From a virus (Duplodnaviria > Heunggongvirae > Uroviricota > Caudoviricetes), in IMG/VR virus record IMGVR_UViG_3300028981_000030: a stretch of DNA of 5,562 nt; one strand, given 5' to 3'. Below, piece by piece: positions 1-5,562 of this stretch; within the stretch, counting starts at the first letter, position 1, and each line of letters begins with the position of its first letter. The notes under the pieces are model-generated. The model was not told the DNA's origin. It was given only the letters and a program-made list of their open reading frames with translations, and made no database searches. A program made the position numbers and the translations under genes.

Positions 1-101
1 GCTATCGCCCCGTAAGCCCAGTTCCCGGTAAAAAGACCAATCAGTAGCTGCGCAGCCACAGCACAAAGCGCATGAAGGAAAGGTGTTATATCCATTTTCA
101 T
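1..101 (-). CDS. possible 5' end of a hypothetical protein with hydrophobic N-terminus (partial, continues beyond window start)
   Basis: Hand translation of the minus strand from ATG at 101..99 (second ATG at 95..93) gives MKMDITPFLHALCAVAAQLLIGLFTGNWAYGAI with no stop before the window edge. A purine-rich AGGA lies just upstream of the second ATG, and the start sits directly after the putative terminator at 117..131. Only about 33 codons are visible, so a chance ORF is not excluded. It is too short to appear in the ORF track. Confidence 0.25.
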   Translation of the reverse strand, partial: MKMDITPFLHALCAVAAQLLIGLFTGNWAYGAI

Positions 102-105
102 CCTA

Positions 106-134
106 CCCAATAAAACGGGGCGCTCGGCCCCTTA
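106..134 (-). terminator. putative rho-independent terminator downstream of the 346-aa fibre-like gene
   Basis: Perfectly complementary arms ggggc (117..121) and gcccc (127..131) with a 5-nt loop. On the minus-strand transcript the stem is followed by GUUUUAUU, and it lies 6 nt after the TAA stop at 138..140. The stem is short (5 bp, all G-C), hence moderate confidence. Confidence 0.45.
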
Positions 135-137
135 ATA

Positions 138-1178
138 TTATTTAGACGCAAGCGCCGCATCAATTGCAGATAATCTTTGTCTTAATTCTGCGTTTTCTTC
201 TTCCAGTGCTGTTATTCTGTCGTCTGACTCTCTGGCTACCTGAACAAGCAAGCCAGTAACACCAGAATAATCTACTGTGTAATAACGTTCACCTTCTTCA
301 CCTTCCGATCCGCTCGCACCGTCCTGATATTTCATTGCGGAACCTACAACTTCTGGGATTGCTTCCAGAGCTTCCTGTGCAATGACACCAGCATAGGGCA
401 TACCGTTTTCTTTAAGCGTGTATGTATAGCCGTTCATTTTACGGATGCGGTCGGTTGCATTATCGATCACCTGAATGTTGTCTTTCAGATCCCGGTCGGA
501 ATGCTGGTTAAATGCGGTGGCATGACATGCACCATTAACGCTTAACATATAGGTGTTATCGGTATTTTTCTGCGCATAGAACATATAAGCGCCACCATCA
601 ACACCGACTTCATAAACAACAGGACGGCTGGAGTTGCCCCACAATTGAGCAGTAACACCAGCATAAGCGGTTCCCTGTGTGTTTAATGTCATGGTTGACC
701 CATGATTGGCATATTTGATCTGTAATGTGTCGGTGTAATCAAATTTAATAAGCGCGTTACTTCCACGCTTGCTGTATGACATAAGGCAGTTACCCATTTT
801 GAGGTATCCGCTGTCACCGGGAAAAATCATCGTACCGCCATAAAGGTTGGTAAAGTCCCAGCAAATGTTTGTCCCGTTATCGTTCAGGTTAAGGCGCGCC
901 ATTGCGTTACCTGGACTGTCTATCCATTTTTTGAGGTATAGTTCGCAATACGCATCCTCAACACCTGCCGTCCTGTGAGTTGAGCGGAGTTTTCTCCCAA
1001 ATATAGCTCCGCTAGTTGGCAATACCTGCTGATACCATGAAGCAGACCAGTCACCAACGATTTCATCTTTGCTGTCTACATATAATTTTGTTGCGTAGCT
1101 TCCTTGATCGTTTTTTAATTTGCTAACGTCGGATTTTAGCGTTTTGATGTCATCAGGAATTACTGTCGATGTAGCCAT
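138..1178 (-). CDS. tail fibre / receptor-binding-like protein with C-terminal intramolecular chaperone auto-processing domain (peptidase S74-like)
   Basis: 346-aa ORF with ATG at 1178..1176 and a GAGGGAGA Shine-Dalgarno about 4 nt upstream. The motif HSDRDLKDNI at residues 226-235 has Ser227 (codon 498..500) and Lys232 (codon 483..485) spaced exactly as the catalytic Ser/Lys dyad of the C-terminal intramolecular chaperone domains of endosialidases and phage T5 L-shaped fibre. The C-terminal helix DDRITALEEENAELRQRLSAIDAALASK is typical of that domain. The N-terminal ~225 residues are beta-rich and G/N/T/Y-rich, like fibre tips. Confidence 0.75.
   Translation of the reverse strand: MATSTVIPDDIKTLKSDVSKLKNDQGSYATKLYVDSKDEIVGDWSASWYQQVLPTSGAIFGRKLRSTHRTAGVEDAYCELYLKKWIDSPGNAMARLNLNDNGTNICWDFTNLYGGTMIFPGDSGYLKMGNCLMSYSKRGSNALIKFDYTDTLQIKYANHGSTMTLNTQGTAYAGVTAQLWGNSSRPVVYEVGVDGGAYMFYAQKNTDNTYMLSVNGACHATAFNQHSDRDLKDNIQVIDNATDRIRKMNGYTYTLKENGMPYAGVIAQEALEAIPEVVGSAMKYQDGASGSEGEEGERYYTVDYSGVTGLLVQVARESDDRITALEEENAELRQRLSAIDAALASK
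141..506 (-). other. intramolecular chaperone / self-cleavage domain (S74-like) within the 346-aa protein
   Basis: Residues ~225-346: the SDRDLK motif followed by a predicted coiled-coil C-terminal helix. Domain boundaries are approximate. Confidence 0.6.
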
Positions 1179-1181
1179 TTG

Positions 1182-1190
1182 TCTCCCTCA
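1182..1190 (-). promoter_or_regulatory. Shine-Dalgarno for the 346-aa gene, overlapping the stop of the 93-aa ORF
   Basis: The minus-strand sequence reads GGATGTGAGGGAGACAA-ATG. The TGA stop of the upstream ORF is embedded in the ribosome-binding site, and the intergenic gap is only 9 nt, suggesting coupled expression. Confidence 0.5.
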
Positions 1191-1469
1191 CATCCAGCCA
1201 CGAAGTTGATGTTCAACTACAACCGCGTATTCATCGAATATTGACGATTTTTTTGCATCATTAATGATGCGCACGTTTACAAAATATCCGTTTTCCTTAA
1301 TACATATCGGTTCGCCATCTTCAGTCAGTTCTCCGGTTTCTTTGTACACGTTACCTATCACGTCAATAAGAATATCATCCTGCATCGACTCGTCATCATA
1401 ATAGCCAGCACTCCCCATAAAGGCCGAAAATTCGGCCCTGTCGGCAAATTTGAGTGTTAAATCTTTCAT
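1188..1469 (-). CDS. small acidic hypothetical protein (93 aa), translationally coupled to stf; candidate fibre-associated chaperone or adaptor
   Basis: ORF from the track. Its ATG (1469..1467) overlaps the stf TAA stop (1471..1469) by one base (TAATG), and a GGGGGAG Shine-Dalgarno lies about 8 nt upstream inside the stf 3' end. The protein is rich in D/E. I recognise no similarity to lambda Tfa. Its position between two fibre genes is the only functional hint. Confidence 0.55.
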   Translation of the reverse strand: MKDLTLKFADRAEFSAFMGSAGYYDDESMQDDILIDVIGNVYKETGELTEDGEPICIKENGYFVNVRIINDAKKSSIFDEYAVVVEHQLRGWM

Positions 1470-3841
1470 TAGATTGACTCCCCCACCTGAGCATCAGTCA
1501 ATGCCTTGTGCCATATTCTGAAATTCCTGACATGACCAAATAAATGACGTAACCCGGCTGTAGTCTGGCCTCCAATACGGATAATTGCGGTGTTCTGAAT
1601 ACAGGACCATGTGGTTTTTGTTTCGCTGGATATACGCCCGTTACTTACTGAGCACGTAGACTGATCTGACTTTACACGCATCCCCATAACCATTTTTTCA
1701 AGCAATGCGTTTTCATTTACCCGTCTGTTAGCTCCTCCAATATCGCAATAAGGAAATCCGTCGTAATCTGCTGAAGAACCGAAGCCAAGAATAATAGCCG
1801 CTCCGGTTTGATGACCGCCGGTGTCAAAAACACGCGGCGCTGCATTTGGCGTTTTATACCAGTTCTTATGTACCTCACAAAGAACCGTAAAAGGAAGATT
1901 ATAAAGATTATTCTTAATGGGAACTGTAACTATATCGCTTGCGCGGGTCGCCGCCGTCGTTCCTGATATAATAAAAGATGATACACAAGGCCCATTTTCT
2001 ACTTGTGGGGTGGCCAGATAAATATAGTCACCAGATACGGTTACCCCGCCCTGCTTAGGAGAATACTGTATCTGAGAACCTATTTTTAACTCCCCATCAA
2101 TTGCCTGAATTGTTGCCTCTGCAAAAATCCATCCGGTAGCTTCGTCCTTTCTGACTCTCGCTGTAATCCTTGAGGCAGCGCCGCCTGTCATATTAATTTC
2201 AAGCGTTTGTGTATCAATATACGCATCACCAAGAAAAGTTGTTGCGCTACCGTCATATTTATCAAACCGGATACGCAACCTTACCTGCAGTTCTGTTTTA
2301 AAACGACATGAGGTTGTCACGTATTTATTATCGCCTGAGACATCAACTGACTTTGTTGCAGCAATTGATGCCATATTAATGGCTGAGGTTTGCCCAATCA
2401 GAGAATCGTTACAGACAAACTTTCCATAGGTAAAACCAAAACTATCCTTCCCGGTTTCGGGAACATCCATATTTGACGATCGCCCCCAACTGGCAGGGTT
2501 TTCCGAATTGAGCATGTAGTTTGTTCTTTGCCCCTCAATAAGCAGGCCATCACGTTCAAATCGTGGCTCGTCAATGGCAGCCTCTGTCAGCACACCAGAT
2601 TTGTTAATATAGGTTGCTTTCGATGCACGTTTAAACTTAACAATCTTGTCGCCAGGCATCGTTATTTCATCGTCACCAATAACAATTTTTTTATATGATG
2701 GCGAAAAGCCCGTAATCATATCCAGCGAATCGTTAAATGGTATCCACACATCAGGCAGCGGCTGTAAGACATATTTATACGGCTCCGCAGCCTGGCTTGC
2801 GTACTCTCTGGCTGCATCTTCGCTTGCTTTAGCTGCCGTCTGGCTTGCTGCCGATGCTTTCGCTGAGTTCGCAGCCGCTGTTTCGCTCACCTTTGCGTTG
2901 GTTTCACTGGTTTTTGCTGCTTTTTGACTGTTAGCTGATGCAGTGGCAGAAGCAGCCGCCGCGCTTGCAGAACTGGCTGCGGCACTCTCGCTTTGGGCCG
3001 CTGCATCCTGACTGCTTTTCGCCGCAGTTTCACTGGCTTTGGCATTCGTTTCGCTGGTCTTCGCTGCCGTCTGGCTGGACTTTGCGTTAGTTTCACTCGT
3101 CTTCGCAGCTTTCTGGCTGTTAGCCGCAGCAGTTGCTGATCCAGCTGCTGAAGTCGCAGAACCGGCTGCCGCGCTCTCGCTTTGGGCTGCTGCAACCTGG
3201 CTGTTTTTTGCCGCAGTTTCACTGGCTTTGGCATTCGTTTCGCTGGTTTTCGCTGCCGTCTGGCTGGACTTTGCGTTGGTTTCGCTCGTCTTTGCGGCTG
3301 TCTCGCTATTTTTCGCGTTGGTTTCTGATTTTTTGGCTGCTGTCGCGGAGTTTGCCGATGCAGTCTTTGAGGTCGCTGCCGCCTGTGCACTATTAGCTGC
3401 ATTCGTTTCTGAGGTTTTCGCCGCGTTCTTCGATGATGCCGCTGCAGTTTCGGATTTCTTTGCCGCCGCTGCGCTCTGAGAGGCGGCTTCAGCGTTGCGT
3501 GCCGCTTCTTCCACCATTTCCTCAAAACGACGCAATGCCTCCGGCATGACATCATCTTCCGTCATGGCACCGAGAAAATCATTCAGCGTACCTGGTCTGG
3601 AACCTTCATAGACGGTAATGGTCCCGGCATGTGAAGGCGGAAAACCTTCAACAAGCAGGATAACGCTGTACTGGCCATACTCAACATCCATGCTGTAACG
3701 CCCGGCTTCATCCGGATTTTCAGAGGCCACCGTGTTCACCAGTACCGTGGTGCTGTTACGCTTTGCCTTCAGTTGAATAGTGCAGTTCTGTATTGGTTTT
3801 CCCGCACCATCTTTCAGCACACCTGAAATCTGTACTGCCAT
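1469..3841 (-). CDS. stf: side tail fibre protein (Stf-like), mosaic: lambda-Stf-like N-terminus, Ala/Ser heptad shaft, C-terminal region ending in a LamG/concanavalin-like signature
   Basis: The N-terminus MAVQISGVLKDGAGKPIQNCTIQLKAKRNSTTV...YSMDVEYGQYSVIL...FPPSHAGTITVYE closely matches my recollection of the lambda Stf N-terminal virion-attachment region. The preferred start is ATG 3841..3839, with GGAG 5 nt upstream; the ORF track begins at GTG 3847. Residues ~113-354 form an Ala/Ser/Thr/Lys-rich 7-residue repeat. The C-terminus ...GLRHLFGHVRNFRIWHKALTDAQVGESI fits the characteristic end motif of LamG_3-type jelly-roll lectin domains (G-x-[IV]-x-x-[VF]-R-I-[WY]-x-x-A-L-[ST]-x-x-[EQ]-[IV]). 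Confidence 0.85.
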   Translation of the reverse strand: MAVQISGVLKDGAGKPIQNCTIQLKAKRNSTTVLVNTVASENPDEAGRYSMDVEYGQYSVILLVEGFPPSHAGTITVYEGSRPGTLNDFLGAMTEDDVMPEALRRFEEMVEEAARNAEAASQSAAAAKKSETAAASSKNAAKTSETNAANSAQAAATSKTASANSATAAKKSETNAKNSETAAKTSETNAKSSQTAAKTSETNAKASETAAKNSQVAAAQSESAAAGSATSAAGSATAAANSQKAAKTSETNAKSSQTAAKTSETNAKASETAAKSSQDAAAQSESAAASSASAAAASATASANSQKAAKTSETNAKVSETAAANSAKASAASQTAAKASEDAAREYASQAAEPYKYVLQPLPDVWIPFNDSLDMITGFSPSYKKIVIGDDEITMPGDKIVKFKRASKATYINKSGVLTEAAIDEPRFERDGLLIEGQRTNYMLNSENPASWGRSSNMDVPETGKDSFGFTYGKFVCNDSLIGQTSAINMASIAATKSVDVSGDNKYVTTSCRFKTELQVRLRIRFDKYDGSATTFLGDAYIDTQTLEINMTGGAASRITARVRKDEATGWIFAEATIQAIDGELKIGSQIQYSPKQGGVTVSGDYIYLATPQVENGPCVSSFIISGTTAATRASDIVTVPIKNNLYNLPFTVLCEVHKNWYKTPNAAPRVFDTGGHQTGAAIILGFGSSADYDGFPYCDIGGANRRVNENALLEKMVMGMRVKSDQSTCSVSNGRISSETKTTWSCIQNTAIIRIGGQTTAGLRHLFGHVRNFRIWHKALTDAQVGESI
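1472..2050 (-). other. putative LamG/concanavalin A-like lectin domain at the Stf distal end (boundaries approximate)
   Basis: The terminal motif GHVRNFRIWHKALTDAQV resembles the conserved C-terminal strand of LamG-like domains. The N-terminal boundary is a guess from typical domain size (~150-200 aa). Confidence 0.45.
2786..3511 (-). repeat. 21-nt (heptad) periodic Ala/Ser-rich coding repeat array in the stf shaft
   Basis: The DNA shows recurring gcttt/gcagc/ttcgct units. The protein reads as consecutive heptads (AAKTSET NAKSSQT AAKTSET NAKASET ...) with Ala at positions 1-2 and Ser at position 5. Lambda Stf has a similar low-complexity shaft. Confidence 0.8.
2921..3298 (-). repeat. direct tandem duplication, 2 x 189 bp (2 x 63 codons), inside the stf shaft
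   Basis: Protein residues 184-246 and 247-309 are near-identical 63-aa blocks (AAKTSETNAKSSQTAAKTSETNAKASETAAK[N/S]SQ[V/D]AAAQSESAAA...ANSQK). At DNA level, ctctcgctttgggc[c/t]gctgca...gcagtttcactggctttggcattcgtttcgctgg recurs at ~2986 and ~3175, an offset of 189 nt. A third partial copy follows toward lower coordinates. Confidence 0.85.
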
Positions 3842-3851
3842 ACTCACTCCA

Positions 3852-3880
3852 CAAATAAAAAAGGCGCCATTTCTGGCGCC
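3852..3880 (-). terminator. rho-independent terminator between J and stf (minus strand)
   Basis: Perfect 7-bp stem ggcgcca (3863..3869) / tggcgcc (3874..3880) with loop tttc. On the minus-strand transcript the stem is followed by UUUUUUAUUU (complement of the A-run at 3853..3862). It lies about 20 nt downstream of the J stop at 3902..3904. A terminator distal to J is my recollection for lambda. Confidence 0.7.
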
Positions 3881-3901
3881 CGTATTGGGGTTATAAATAT
3901 T

Positions 3902-5562
3902 TCAACGGATACTGATACCGGAAGCGGCTTTTTTGGTCACAATCACCGTACAGTCGGTGATATTGCCTGCCCCCTGATTGCCTTTCTGGAAAACCTTAAA
4001 CTCCAGAGTGACGCTACCACCACCACTAGGCATATCAATAACTGCACTGTAACTACCGGGAATGGCCCCTTTAGTTTCTCTGGATGCGATTAATACGCCG
4101 TTTTTGCGAACTTCAAAACCATAACCCGTGTATCGCGTGCCTCCTGGGTTATTTCCGCTCCCCGGATCGTCATACGCTATACCGTTAAAAATAATGGGCG
4201 GAATAATAATCTGGCGGTCAAAGTTATGATCATCGCTGATGGTGACTGTAACCGTACCGTTTGGTGTTTCCGTGTTACCCCACGTACCGACTTTTTTCGG
4301 GAAGGCTTTTGATACAGCTTTAACGAAATCCCCTCTGACCTGGGTCGCCTCCAGCATGCCCTTAATCGTACAGTTCTGGTTAATCGTGACATTGTTGAGC
4401 GTTCCTGAGTTCGCATTCACACTACCACTGATATCCGCATTTTTAGCGGTCAGCTTTCCGTCTGATGTCAGGGAAAATACCGGAGGACTGCCACCGCTGG
4501 TAATGGTGGGGGCTGTCAGGCGCTTCAGGAACACGTCGTTCATGAATATCTGGTTGCCCTGCGCCACAAACATCGGCGTTTCATTCCCGTTTGCCGGGTC
4601 AATAAACGCGATACGGTTAGCGGCAACCAGAAACTGGCTCAGCTTGCCTTCCTCCGTGTCCTCCATGCTGAGACCAATACCCGCGACATAATGTTTGCCG
4701 TCTTTGGTCTGCTCAATTTTGACGCCCCACATGGCATTCCATTTATCGTTAGCGTCCTTCCACTCTTTCGAAAACTCATCCAGTCTGCTGGCGTTATCCT
4801 CCGTCAGATCGACTTTTTCCAGCAGCTCCTTGCCGAGATGAGATTCGGTTATCTTGCCTTTGAAAAAATCCAGATAACCTTCCGCATCATCGCTCGCCCG
4901 ACCGACGGCCTCCACGAATGCCGATTTGCCAACGGTGTTCACACTGCGGATATAAAAGTAATAATCATGGCCCGGTTTGATATTGATACTGGCGGCTATC
5001 CAGTACAGCGCCGTACCAAGATAGCGGGCTGTGGTTTCAACCTGCCTGATATCGGTAATCCGCTTTTCCGAGAACCAGAACTCAAACTGTACCGTCGGGT
5101 CATAAACGGCAAGATGCGGCGTGGCGGTTATCTGAAAATAGCCCGGCGTCAGCTCAATCCGCGACGGCGCTGCCGGTGCGGCGATCCGGAACGATACCGA
5201 TGCAGGATCGCCCTGCTGTCCCCATGCATTTACCGCCCGGACTGTCAGCCTGTAATTTCCCAGCGCCAGCTGCCTGAAGCGGTATGTGGTTTCCGTCGTC
5301 CGGGCCGTGATGACCAGCCGCTCACTGCCGTCATCCGCTGTTACGGTCAGACGGAGCAGGAAGCTCACGCCCTTCACCACCTTCGGCGTGTCCCATCGCG
5401 CCAGCACCTGATATTCCCCGCTGTCTGCGGTGACTTCGGCGGTCAGGTGCTGCACCGCTGGCGGCGTGACACCATTCACCGTGCCGCTCTGGTCGCCGTC
5501 AAAGTGCGCCCCGTTATCCACGATGGCTTCTTTTTCCGGTACATGCTGCACGGCGGTGATGG
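3902..5562 (-). CDS. J: host specificity / tail tip protein J-like, C-terminal portion (5' end lies beyond the window)
   Basis: The frame is open to the window edge (...[11 protein letters not shown]...). The segments [22 protein letters not shown] and TAPTITSGG and the overall layout match my recollection of lambda-family J proteins, including fibronectin-III-like repeats. The last ~150 residues are Gly-rich and would correspond to the receptor-binding region. The TGA stop is at 3904..3902. Confidence 0.85.

What the first reader, a model, noticed from the sequence alone, without database searches (positions are those of the whole stretch)
1188..1471. 93-aa acidic protein translationally coupled to stf (TAATG overlap)
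The ORF start overlaps the stf stop by one nucleotide, and its own stop is embedded in the Shine-Dalgarno of the next gene. This implies tightly linked production of the three proteins. The protein has no similarity I can recognise to Tfa or other fibre chaperones. Small acidic proteins next to fibre genes are sometimes assembly chaperones or adaptors, but this is only a positional inference.
Basis: inference. Interest (0 to 1): 0.45.

Follow-up and report, generated by a model that had tools for sequence, protein, structure and literature searches.

The report
Small partner protein of lectin-tipped phage fibres
This 93-residue gene is a real, widespread but uncharacterised phage gene that always sits directly behind tail-fibre genes ending in a sugar-binding-type domain, so it is most likely a helper or joint piece for building two-part host-recognition fibres.

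Summary
On the minus strand, a 93-aa acidic ORF (1188..1469) starts in a TAATG overlap with the stf stop. Its TGA lies inside the Shine-Dalgarno of the 346-aa fibre gene.

It belongs to phrog_1361 (unknown function), with no Pfam, NCBIfam or PADLOC match and no convincing solved-structure match. It is intact in all 81 close loci examined, under purifying selection (pN/pS 0.34), and present in 990 of 5,426 complete E. coli genomes.

Across lambdoid, Drexlerviridae, Dhillonvirus, Seuratvirus, T5-like, rV5-like and environmental phages, the invariant neighbour is the upstream fibre's C-terminal CBM-plus-LamG/ConA-like module. The gene is translationally coupled to that module. The downstream S74 fibre is optional.

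In rV5-like phages, the LamG module and small ORF swap as one unit against an allele ending in an intramolecular chaperone. In DT57C, the two fibres are one polypeptide, with neither the module nor the ORF.

In close relatives, the small protein and the first 20 residues of the distal fibre form a conserved island between two hypervariable receptor-binding modules.

Best reading: a dedicated fibre-end accessory protein, analogous in role to Tfa/gp38 but a new family, possibly retained as part of the proximal-distal joint. No experiment addresses it. It is a new variant of a known kind, of moderate interest.

The parts
1188..1469 (-). 93-aa acidic ORF (stop included), a member of phrog_1361. 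The AF2 model is a small alpha/beta fold (b-a-a-b-b-b-b-a) with a less ordered C-terminal tail ending in the family motif P/L-x-R-x-W-(A/M).
1467..1484 (-). Junction 1. The GGGGGAG Shine-Dalgarno (1484..1478) lies inside the last stf codons. The TAATG overlap joins the stf stop (1471..1469) and the small-ORF start (1469..1467).
   Evidence: A TAATG or ATGA overlap is present in 80/81 loci and 79/79 loci, and in KarlJaspers, VogelGryff, VSe12, IrisVonRoten, JeffSchatz and L087. In AKFV33 the small ORF starts on the base after the fibre stop, with no overlap.
1176..1190 (-). Junction 2. The small-ORF TGA (1190..1188) is embedded in the GAGGGAG Shine-Dalgarno (1189..1183), followed by a short spacer and the ATG of the 346-aa gene (1178..1176). 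The two ORFs are in the same frame (TGA GGG AGA CAA ATG).
   Evidence: conserved in 78 loci
1472..2758 (-). C-terminal module of Stf (aa 364-792). This is the element that always accompanies the small ORF. It comprises a neck, a CBM-like beta-sandwich and a LamG/ConA-like end.
   Evidence: 43-70% identity to fibres of four other phage families; phrog_5939 and NF048003; RcGTA head-spike fibre 6TB9, E 4e-7
2012..2497 (-). CBM-like beta-sandwich domain (Stf aa ~451-612), the only part of the module that AF2 models confidently.
1472..1921 (-). LamG/ConA-like C-terminal 150 aa of Stf, ending ...HLFGHVRNFRIWHKALTDAQVGESI.
   Evidence: Laminin_G_3 is the top Pfam family in 8 of 8 diverse homologues (best E 3.7e-7; window E 2e-3, below the gathering score). 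The AF2 monomer model of this part has low confidence.
3449..3841 (-). Stf N-terminal tail-attachment domain (PF08400, aa 3-133).
   Evidence: E 1.8e-67
2891..3307 (-). Ala/Ser/Thr-rich shaft repeats of Stf (SETNAK.S.TAAK-type; 189-nt period, 2.2 copies).
138..1178 (-). 346-aa distal fibre (phrog_4563). It has a conserved N-terminal docking-type motif MATSTVIPDDIKTLK (1134..1178), a variable body, and a Peptidase_S74 intramolecular chaperone (aa 227-278, nt 345..500).
3862..3881 (-). Terminator-like hairpin with a T-run between J and stf (upstream boundary of the block).
117..131 (-). Terminator-like hairpin immediately after the 346-aa gene (downstream boundary of the block).

Best explanation
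The ORF encodes a small, cytoplasmic, acidic alpha/beta protein. It is a dedicated accessory partner of the lectin-like C-terminal module (CBM-like plus LamG/ConA-like) that ends the proximal side tail fibre.

Shown:
- It is a real gene under purifying selection.
- It is translated from a start that overlaps the fibre's stop codon (directly abuts it in AKFV33, and lies up to 23 nt downstream in a few environmental loci).
- It co-occurs essentially 1:1 with this fibre end across at least six phage groups.
- It moves with that fibre end as one recombination unit.

Inferred:
- It binds the conserved terminal strands of the fibre end, probably using its conserved face (D-x-IG, GYFVN-R) and its conserved extreme C-terminal P-x-R-x-W tail.
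- It acts as an intermolecular assembly factor or cap for a fibre that has no Tfa and no intramolecular chaperone. In role it is an analogue of Tfa, gp38 or the S74 domain, but it is a different family and fold.
- In three-gene cassettes like this window, it is also part of the conserved junction on which an exchangeable distal fibre (here the 346-aa protein) is mounted. That junction comprises the last ~45 aa of the proximal fibre, the small protein, and the first ~20 aa of the distal fibre.
For: 1. Real gene. phrog_1361 match E 8e-45; 81/81 loci intact with pN/pS 0.34; present in 990 of 5,426 complete E. coli genomes.

2. Invariant upstream partner. Fibres of KarlJaspers, VogelGryff, VSe12, IrisVonRoten, AKFV33 and JeffSchatz share the Stf C-terminal module, and each is followed by an overlapping or directly abutting small ORF. 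79 of 79 informative loci with this fibre end have the ORF. In the phage database, 205 records have the fibre end, against 183 plus about 21 (AKFV33 subtype) with the ORF.

3. The association survives where no distal fibre exists. This holds for rV5-like phages, L087, L088 and many environmental loci, whose upstream proteins still end in a LamG-type motif.

4. Natural swap. rV5 gp41 and JeffSchatz bas55_0026 are 91% identical over aa 1-1049 and have identical downstream genes. The rV5 allele ends in an S74 chaperone with no small ORF; the JeffSchatz allele ends in the LamG module plus the small ORF.

5. Neither this stf nor the sampled homologous fibres (KarlJaspers, JeffSchatz and the eight fibre ends of alignment A3) show an S74 domain, and no Tfa gene follows.

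6. Conserved island. The small protein's mean distance is 0.07 and the distal fibre's first 20 residues 0.10, against 0.4-0.55 for the flanking receptor-binding modules.

7. Co-phylogeny. Small-protein divergence correlates with the distal N-terminal 20 aa (rho 0.85) and with the last 45 aa of the proximal fibre (rho 0.69), compared with 0.3-0.5 for the rest of the proximal fibre and 0.68 for distal-fibre residues 21-60.

8. The AF2 model is confident (pLDDT 84.9) with a floppy but conserved C-terminal tail, as expected for a segment that orders on binding.
Against: - There is no physical or genetic evidence of any kind. No proteome, knock-down or structure covers the protein.
- It has no sequence or fold similarity to any known fibre chaperone.
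- Small-protein divergence does not track the body of the LamG module. VogelGryff's fibre end is 87% identical but its small protein only 40%; PhiR46_1's are 34% and 87%. Any interface must therefore involve only the conserved terminal strands.
- The correlations are confounded by physical linkage.
- The complex could not be modelled, and the AF2 monomer model of the LamG end was low confidence.
- The BASEL authors modelled the IrisVonRoten Gp22-Gp24 fibre complex and do not discuss Gp23.
Confidence: 0.55

Rival explanations
1. It is a retained structural hinge or adaptor, T4 gp35-like in role. The small protein stays in the virion at the end of the proximal fibre and is the socket into which the N-terminal MAT.T.IP.DI..LK segment of the distal fibre plugs. 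Its primary job would be docking, not folding.
For: - The gene lies exactly between the proximal and distal fibre genes.
- DT57C LtfA carries the distal-fibre homologue fused in-frame (IrisVonRoten Gp24 aa 3-568 aligns to LtfA 511-1073) and lacks both the LamG module and the small ORF. Both therefore appear exactly where the fibre is split.
- The strongest co-variation is with the distal N-terminal 20 aa (rho 0.85; rho 0.37-0.44 for the C-terminal half in close relatives).
- Environmental relatives L181-L183 also have a second, unrelated short fibre right after the ORF.
Against: - The ORF, including its conserved P-x-R-x-W C-terminus, persists in many cassettes with no distal fibre: L087 and L184-L194. 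rV5-like phages also lack the distal fibre, though there the tail has diverged.
- The co-variation is equally explained by linkage.
- No virion proteome detects it. AKFV33 gel bands only confirmed ORF137.
- The BASEL AF-Multimer models attach Gp24 to Gp22 and do not discuss Gp23.
Confidence: 0.27
2. It is a tip adhesin or specificity factor, T2/T6 gp38-like. The protein would sit on the fibre end and itself contact the host surface.
For: It lies immediately downstream of a fibre gene, as gp38 does. The pair window vs PhiR63_1 shows 13 non-synonymous to 1 synonymous change.
Against: - It is far more conserved than the flanking receptor-binding modules (0.07 vs 0.4-0.55).
- Overall pN/pS is 0.34.
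- The 13:1 pair is not significant: the expected non-synonymous fraction is about 0.8, giving a binomial P of about 0.2 (my arithmetic site counts).
- It has no hypervariable loops and is a small acidic protein.
Confidence: 0.05
3. It is functionally unrelated cargo (a moron, regulator or anti-defence protein) that merely rides in the late operon, or the segment is kept mainly as a DNA-level recombination linker between fibre modules.
For: No known domain was found. The N- and C-terminal halves of the gene have nearly independent histories in close relatives (rho 0.10), so recombination breakpoints do fall inside it.
Against: - It co-occurs 1:1 with one fibre-end type across unrelated phage families, and the start almost always overlaps or abuts the fibre stop.
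- Protein-level conservation of motifs holds at 30-50% identity, and selection is purifying.
- There are no PADLOC hits and no signal peptide or transmembrane segment is visible in the sequence.
- It swaps together with the fibre end in rV5-like phages.
Confidence: 0.08

Closest known systems
Lambda Tfa / Mu-P2 tail fibre assembly proteins (Pfam Caudo_TAP) and T4 gp38/gp57A
   Same: The gene lies immediately downstream of the fibre gene whose C-terminus it is proposed to serve. It is a small, non-enzymatic protein, and it is present where the fibre lacks an intramolecular chaperone.
   Different: - No sequence or profile similarity and a different predicted fold.
- The partner domain is LamG/ConA-like rather than the Stf/gp37-type tip.
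- It is half the size of Tfa.
- The chaperone function is untested.
Peptidase_S74 intramolecular chaperone domains (K1F endosialidase, T5 pb1) and the Alteromonas V22/A5 'transient chaperone caps' (PMC10579305)
   Same: It occupies the same slot. In rV5-like phages, one allele of the fibre ends in an S74 domain, while the alternative allele ends in the LamG module plus this ORF.
T4 gp35 hinge between proximal (gp34) and distal (gp36-gp37) half-fibres (established knowledge, not retrieved here)
   Same: The gene order is proximal fibre, small protein, distal fibre. A non-covalent joint between two fibre segments is needed.
   Different: gp35 is about four times larger and unrelated in sequence. 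Presence of the 93-aa protein in virions is unknown. The family also occurs without any distal fibre.
Branched LtfA/LtfB fibres of T5-like DT57C (PMC4728585, PMC10713586) and the IrisVonRoten Gp22/Gp24 T-shaped fibre complex (PMC11990801)
   Same: IrisVonRoten is the same cassette: bas32_0022 is the LamG-ended proximal fibre, bas32_0023 is a family member (97.8% identical to the VSe12 copy), and bas32_0024 is the distal fibre. These are two receptor-binding modules on one lateral fibre.
   Different: DT57C has no family member and no LamG module. Its LtfA carries the distal-type segment fused in-frame and ends in its own S74 domain. The published models and text do not address the small protein.

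Membership tests
phrog_1361 (PHROG family, unknown function) | Full-length match to the family HMM | tested here: met
   E 8.1e-45, residues 1-93 against profile 1-92/92
Tail fibre assembly proteins (Tfa / Caudo_TAP, gp38, gp57A) | Sequence or profile membership | tested here: not met
   0 Pfam families at E<=1 and 0 NCBIfam families. The PDB profile search gives only insignificant hits.
Tail fibre assembly proteins (Tfa / Caudo_TAP, gp38, gp57A) | Gene directly downstream of, and co-expressed with, the fibre gene it serves | tested here: met
   TAATG overlap with the stf stop, conserved across families
Tail fibre assembly proteins (Tfa / Caudo_TAP, gp38, gp57A) | Required for folding or trimerisation of the fibre C-terminus; binds it physically | not testable with these tools
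   Only monomer AF2 was available. No experimental data were found.
Peptidase_S74 intramolecular chaperone | PF13884 domain at the C-terminus of the fibre polypeptide, self-cleaving | tested here: not met
T4 gp35-type fibre hinge | Gene between the proximal and distal fibre genes | tested here: met
   Order is stf, 93-aa ORF, 346-aa fibre; the same order holds in five other phage groups
T4 gp35-type fibre hinge | Virion component located at the joint | not testable with these tools
   No proteome resolves a 10-kDa protein in any carrier phage
T4 gp35-type fibre hinge | Always paired with a distal fibre | tested here: not met
   Family members occur without a distal fibre in rV5-like phages, L087, L088 and L184-L194
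Two-part lateral fibre cassette (IrisVonRoten Gp22-Gp23-Gp24 type) | Proximal fibre ending in a CBM plus LamG-like module, a ~90-aa ORF overlapping its stop, and a distal fibre starting M-x-T-x-T-x-IP-x-DI-x-x-LK with a C-terminal S74 domain | tested here: met
Anti-phage defence / counter-defence proteins (PADLOC) | Profile match | tested here: not met
   0 families for three diverse members

The most novel reading that the evidence does not exclude
The small protein is a retained, universal 'socket'. Bound to the LamG-like end of a proximal fibre, it forms a conserved plug-and-socket joint that lets unrelated distal fibres be mounted and exchanged. It would give one lateral fibre two independently swappable receptor-binding modules in at least six phage families and about a fifth of E. 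coli genomes. That would identify the missing third component of branched lateral fibres, and a handle for engineering dual-specificity fibres.
Probability: 0.27. Interest if true: 0.65.

Novelty: new variant of a known kind. Interest (0 to 1): 0.45.

Why it matters
Lateral and side tail fibres set the first step of host recognition, and they are the main target of host-range engineering. One example is the libraries of chimeric lambda Stf proteins built from prophage fibres (10.1101/2025.02.28.640725).

Fibres with this lectin-like end occur in about 18% of complete E. coli genomes and in lambdoid, T1-like, T5-like, rV5-like, Dhillonvirus and Seuratvirus phages. Yet the gene that always accompanies them is annotated 'hypothetical' and is not discussed in published fibre models.

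If it is an obligate assembly partner or joint piece, transplanting these receptor-binding modules without it may fail, and structural models of branched fibres are incomplete. It also gives a concrete candidate for the unresolved question of how a second fibre is attached to the first in branched lateral fibres.

Tried and rejected
1. Diversifying selection or hypermutation. The window vs PhiR63_1 pair shows 13 non-synonymous to 1 synonymous difference. Over 44 alleles, pN/pS is 0.34, and 13 of 14 is not significant against a non-synonymous site fraction of about 0.8 (binomial P about 0.2, my arithmetic). Rejected.

2. Programmed -1 frameshift fusing Stf to the small protein. The small-ORF frame is open for only 8 codons upstream of its ATG. 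The G-run there is a Shine-Dalgarno, and junction sequences differ between families. Rejected.

3. TGA read-through fusing the small ORF to the 346-aa fibre. The two ORFs are in frame here and in about 78 close loci. The spacing is 2-12 nt and out of frame in other families. Unsupported.

4. Natural gene fusions (Rosetta-stone evidence). The extended database entries are frameshifted or truncated calls, not fusions.

5. The antisense ORF 1264..1401(+) and other ORFs of 40 aa or more overlapping the block have no support. The antisense ORFs overlapping the stf shaft repeats (~2890-3560) are probably by-products of the repeat region (my inference).

6. RNA element: no Rfam family was found in the window.

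7. Defence or anti-defence role: no PADLOC hits.

9. AF2 of the Stf C-terminal module to confirm the LamG fold. Only the CBM-like domain was confident; the last ~180 aa had pLDDT of about 28. Inconclusive. The LamG assignment rests on sub-threshold Laminin_G_3 hits in 8/8 homologues and on the BASEL authors' 'galectin-like domain'.

10. Literature on function. There are no papers for phrog_1361. AKFV33 proteomics covered 4 gel bands. CRISPRi-ART screens did not include a carrier phage. The phiAPCEc03 paper has no proteome.

11. The one-genome-per-species scan with the fibre end found a single locus in an Escherichia sp., so it gave little extra diversity.

12. The idea that the conserved P-x-R-x-W C-terminus is the distal-fibre docking element. 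Rejected, because the motif is present in many cassettes without a distal fibre.
Full report
**Observation.** The window carries, all on the minus strand:
- the C-terminal part of a J-type tip protein (3902..5551);
- a 792-aa side tail fibre gene stf (1469..3847);
- a 93-aa ORF (1188..1469);
- a 346-aa ORF (138..1178).

- The stf stop TAA (1471..1469) shares its last A with the ATG of the small ORF (TAATG). A GGGGGAG Shine-Dalgarno sits 8 nt upstream, inside the last stf codons.
- The small ORF's TGA (1190..1188) is the start of TGAGGGAGACAAATG, so it lies inside the ribosome-binding site of the 346-aa gene.
- The protein is acidic (pI 4.3, 10.6 kDa).
- Terminator-like hairpins bracket the three-gene block at 3881..3862 and 131..117. 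Nothing comparable lies inside it. No Rfam family is present.

**It is a real gene.**
- The ORF matches phrog_1361 ('unknown function') end to end (E 8e-45). It has no Pfam, NCBIfam or PADLOC match.
- In 80 IMG/VR loci plus the window, it is always exactly 282 nt without interruption. Eighty of the 81 show a TAATG or ATGA overlap with the upstream stop, and 78 keep the TGAGG.AG....ATG downstream junction.
- Over 44 distinct alleles, pooled pN/pS is 0.34. The striking 13:1 non-synonymous:synonymous ratio against the closest sequenced phage, PhiR63_1, is therefore not representative and not significant.
- The junction region is found at 80% identity or more in 990 of 5,426 complete E. coli genomes. 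It is always annotated 'hypothetical protein' between two fibre genes.
- An exhaustive HMMER scan of 1.84 billion representatives finds only 49 clusters. This is a small, phage-restricted family.

**What surrounds it.**
- Stf has the lambdoid N-terminal attachment domain (PF08400) and an Ala/Ser/Thr-rich repeat shaft.
- It also has a ~430-aa C-terminal module unlike lambda's, and no tfa gene follows.
- The module hits NCBIfam 'GTA_spike_fiber' and the RcGTA head-spike fibre Rcc01080 (6TB9, E 4e-7). Rcc01080 is a single-subunit capsule-polysaccharide binder (PMC7296036).
- The last 150 aa hit Laminin_G_3 (ConA-like). The hit is weak in the window (E 2e-3, below the gathering score) but is the top family in 8 of 8 diverse homologues (best E 3.7e-7). 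The AF2 monomer model of that part was not confident.
- The BASEL authors describe the equivalent part of IrisVonRoten Gp22 as a protruding 'galectin-like domain' (PMC11990801).
- The 346-aa protein is a second fibre (phrog_4563) with a Peptidase_S74 intramolecular chaperone.

**The invariant partner is the upstream fibre end.** tblastn finds the small protein in 183 phage records spanning lambdoids, Drexlerviridae, Dhillonvirus, Seuratvirus/Nonagvirus, T5-like and rV5-like phages.
- In KarlJaspers, VogelGryff, VSe12, IrisVonRoten and AKFV33, the layout is the same three genes.
- Their proximal fibres share the Stf C-terminal module at 43-70% identity.
- Their distal fibres share only an N-terminal motif, M-x-T-x-T-x-IP-x-DI-x-x-LK.

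Cassettes that lack the distal fibre still keep the fibre end and the small ORF:
- In the rV5-like JeffSchatz, a 1,479-aa fibre ends in the same module (45% identity) and is followed by an overlapping 110-aa homologue. A terminator and an unrelated gene follow, with no distal fibre.
- The divergent members P0164 and P0162, and about 25 environmental loci, show the same pattern. The upstream protein ends in a LamG-type terminal motif. The small ORF overlaps its stop or follows within 23 nt. The downstream gene is variable: a Mu GpP-like baseplate protein, gp37/Gp53-type short fibres, lipoproteins, or nothing.
- Nearly all members end in P-x-(R/Y)-R-x-W-(A/L) at the extreme C-terminus, whatever follows.

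The reverse implication also holds.
- 79 of 79 informative loci retrieved with the fibre end carry the ORF.
- In the phage database, 205 records have the fibre end. The ORF is present in 183 records plus about 21 of the AKFV33 subtype, which the window query misses (AKFV33 orf136 hits the family HMM at 5e-22).

**Two natural experiments.**
1. rV5 gp41 and JeffSchatz bas55_0026 are 91% identical over aa 1-1049, and their downstream genes are 100% identical. Between these points, rV5 has a receptor-binding end with an S74 intramolecular chaperone and no small ORF. JeffSchatz has the LamG module plus the small ORF. The module and the ORF therefore move as one unit, and they occupy the slot filled by a self-chaperoning end in the other allele.
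2. In DT57C, the homologue of the distal fibre (IrisVonRoten Gp24 aa 3-568) is fused in-frame within LtfA (aa 511-1073). LtfA ends in its own S74 domain, and no family member is detectable in six-frame translation of the ltf locus. The three-gene cassette is thus a split version of a single fibre. What sits at the split is the LamG module plus the small ORF.

**Pattern of variation.** Among 54 distinct close haplotypes:
- The small protein (mean distance 0.07) and the first 20 residues of the distal fibre (0.10) are conserved islands.
- They lie between two hypervariable modules: the Stf C-module at 0.4-0.55 and distal-fibre residues 21-60 at 0.50.
- The downstream fibre comes in at least two unrelated bodies (234 aa and 346 aa) behind the same N-terminal motif.

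Across 18 diverse three-gene cassettes, small-protein divergence correlates as follows:
- with the distal N-terminal 20 aa, rho 0.85;
- with the last 45 aa of the proximal fibre, rho 0.69;
- with distal-fibre residues 21-60, rho 0.68;
- with the rest of the proximal fibre, rho 0.3-0.5.

This fits a conserved junction unit, but it is confounded by physical linkage. The two halves of the small gene have almost independent histories in close relatives (rho 0.10), so recombination breakpoints fall inside it. Small-protein identity does not follow the body of the LamG module: VogelGryff shows 87% against 40%, and PhiR46_1 shows 34% against 87%. Any interface must therefore use the conserved terminal strands.

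**Structure.** AF2 with 27 sequences gives a confident small alpha/beta fold (pLDDT 84.9, pTM 0.71). Its elements run b1-a1-a2-b2-b3-b4-b5-a3, followed by a less ordered C-terminal tail.
- Nearly invariant residues are D3, L6, F8, G39, G61, V64, N65, R67, R90 and W92.
- A profile search of PDB sequences gives nothing significant.
- BFVD returns only uncharacterised phage proteins.
- No known fibre chaperone or intramolecular chaperone appears among the hits.

**Interpretation.** What is shown is a real, conserved gene. It is translationally coupled to, and co-inherited with, one specific type of fibre end, independently of the distal fibre.

What is inferred is mechanism. I favour a dedicated accessory protein that binds the conserved end of the LamG-like module. 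It would act as an assembly factor or cap for a fibre that has neither Tfa nor an intramolecular chaperone. In three-gene cassettes it may stay on as part of the joint that carries the exchangeable distal fibre (confidence 0.55).

The main rival is a primarily structural hinge or adaptor for the distal fibre, T4 gp35-like in role (0.27). Gene order, the DT57C comparison and the co-variation with the distal N-terminus support it. The many cassettes without a distal fibre weaken it. An adhesin role (0.05) and unrelated cargo or a pure recombination linker (0.08) are unlikely.

**Literature.** No publication addresses the protein.
- The DT57C papers concern a locus that lacks it.
- The BASEL papers model IrisVonRoten Gp22 and Gp24 and do not discuss Gp23.
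- AKFV33 proteomics excised four large bands only, confirming the proximal fibre ORF137 in virions.
- CRISPRi-ART genome-wide screens covered T4, T5, SUSP1 and PTXU04, none of which appeared among the records carrying the cassette in my searches.

**Verdict.** This is a new family within the known kind 'fibre accessory proteins encoded directly after the fibre gene'. It is of moderate interest, mainly for fibre assembly and host-range engineering.

Noticed in passing
window 3850..3901: Between the J stop and the stf start there are only ~55 nt, containing a strong terminator-like hairpin (GGGCGCCAGAAATGGCGCCT followed by TTTTTATTTG, minus strand 3881..3862). Many related lambdoid phages have a lom gene here (annotations). 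Late transcription would have to read through it, presumably by Q-type antitermination.
   Followed up: partly
window 3..95 (minus strand): This is the start of a further ORF (MDITPFLHALCAVAAQLLIGLFTGNWAYGAI..., hydrophobic and membrane-protein-like) beyond the terminator that ends the fibre block. It corresponds to a 97-aa 'hypothetical protein' in PhiR63_1 and looks like a moron.
   Followed up: partly
window 1176..1190: The small ORF and the 346-aa fibre gene are in the same reading frame, separated by TGA GGG AGA CAA. TGA read-through would give a fusion. The 9-nt spacing is kept in 78 close loci but not in other phage families, so it is probably incidental.
   Followed up: yes
window 1188..1469 vs L001 3958..4239: Against PhiR63_1, the small ORF differs at 14 codons, 13 of them non-synonymous, while the whole window is 97.4% identical. 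This is not significant on its own, and family-wide pN/pS is 0.34.
   Followed up: yes
L086 (rV5) 19200..23018 vs L085 (JeffSchatz) 2562..7333: There is allelic replacement at the end of the large lateral fibre gene of rV5-like phages. One allele carries an S74-chaperone end; the other carries the LamG module plus the small ORF. The breakpoint is sharp at aa ~1049, and the downstream genes are identical.
   Followed up: yes
L173 (DT57C) 12189..15419: DT57C LtfA contains, fused in-frame from aa ~511, a homologue of the separate distal T-shaped fibre of IrisVonRoten (45% identity over ~560 aa). Single-chain and split versions of the same lateral fibre therefore coexist among T5-like phages.
   Followed up: partly
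phage database records: Several records labelled 'Campylobacter phage' (C12, C13, C14, A116, A120, A131) and 'Listeria phage' (LM 4-11-1, LM 4-14-1) carry near-identical T5-like, rV5-like or Dhillonvirus-like coliphage fibre cassettes. They are probably mislabelled or contaminant assemblies.
   Followed up: no
L181-L183, ~3793..4476: In environmental relatives, the small ORF is followed by a different kind of short fibre (gp37_trimer plus Gp53-like_C, 228-279 aa). This is a second, independent instance of 'LamG-ended protein, small ORF, second fibre'.
   Followed up: partly
window 2891..3307: The Stf shaft contains a 189-nt repeat (2.2 copies, 84% matches) encoding SETNAK/TAAK-type Ala/Ser/Thr-rich segments. 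stf-frame lengths vary among close relatives, and I suspect, without having tested it, that repeat copy number contributes. The long antisense ORFs in this region are probably by-products of the repeats.
   Followed up: partly
(AKFV33, PMC3326045): The proximal fibre ORF137 (784 aa, roughly 85 kDa by my estimate from its length) ran at an observed 95.8 kDa on SDS-PAGE. This is probably gel inaccuracy, but the ~10-kDa excess equals the size of the small protein.
   Followed up: no
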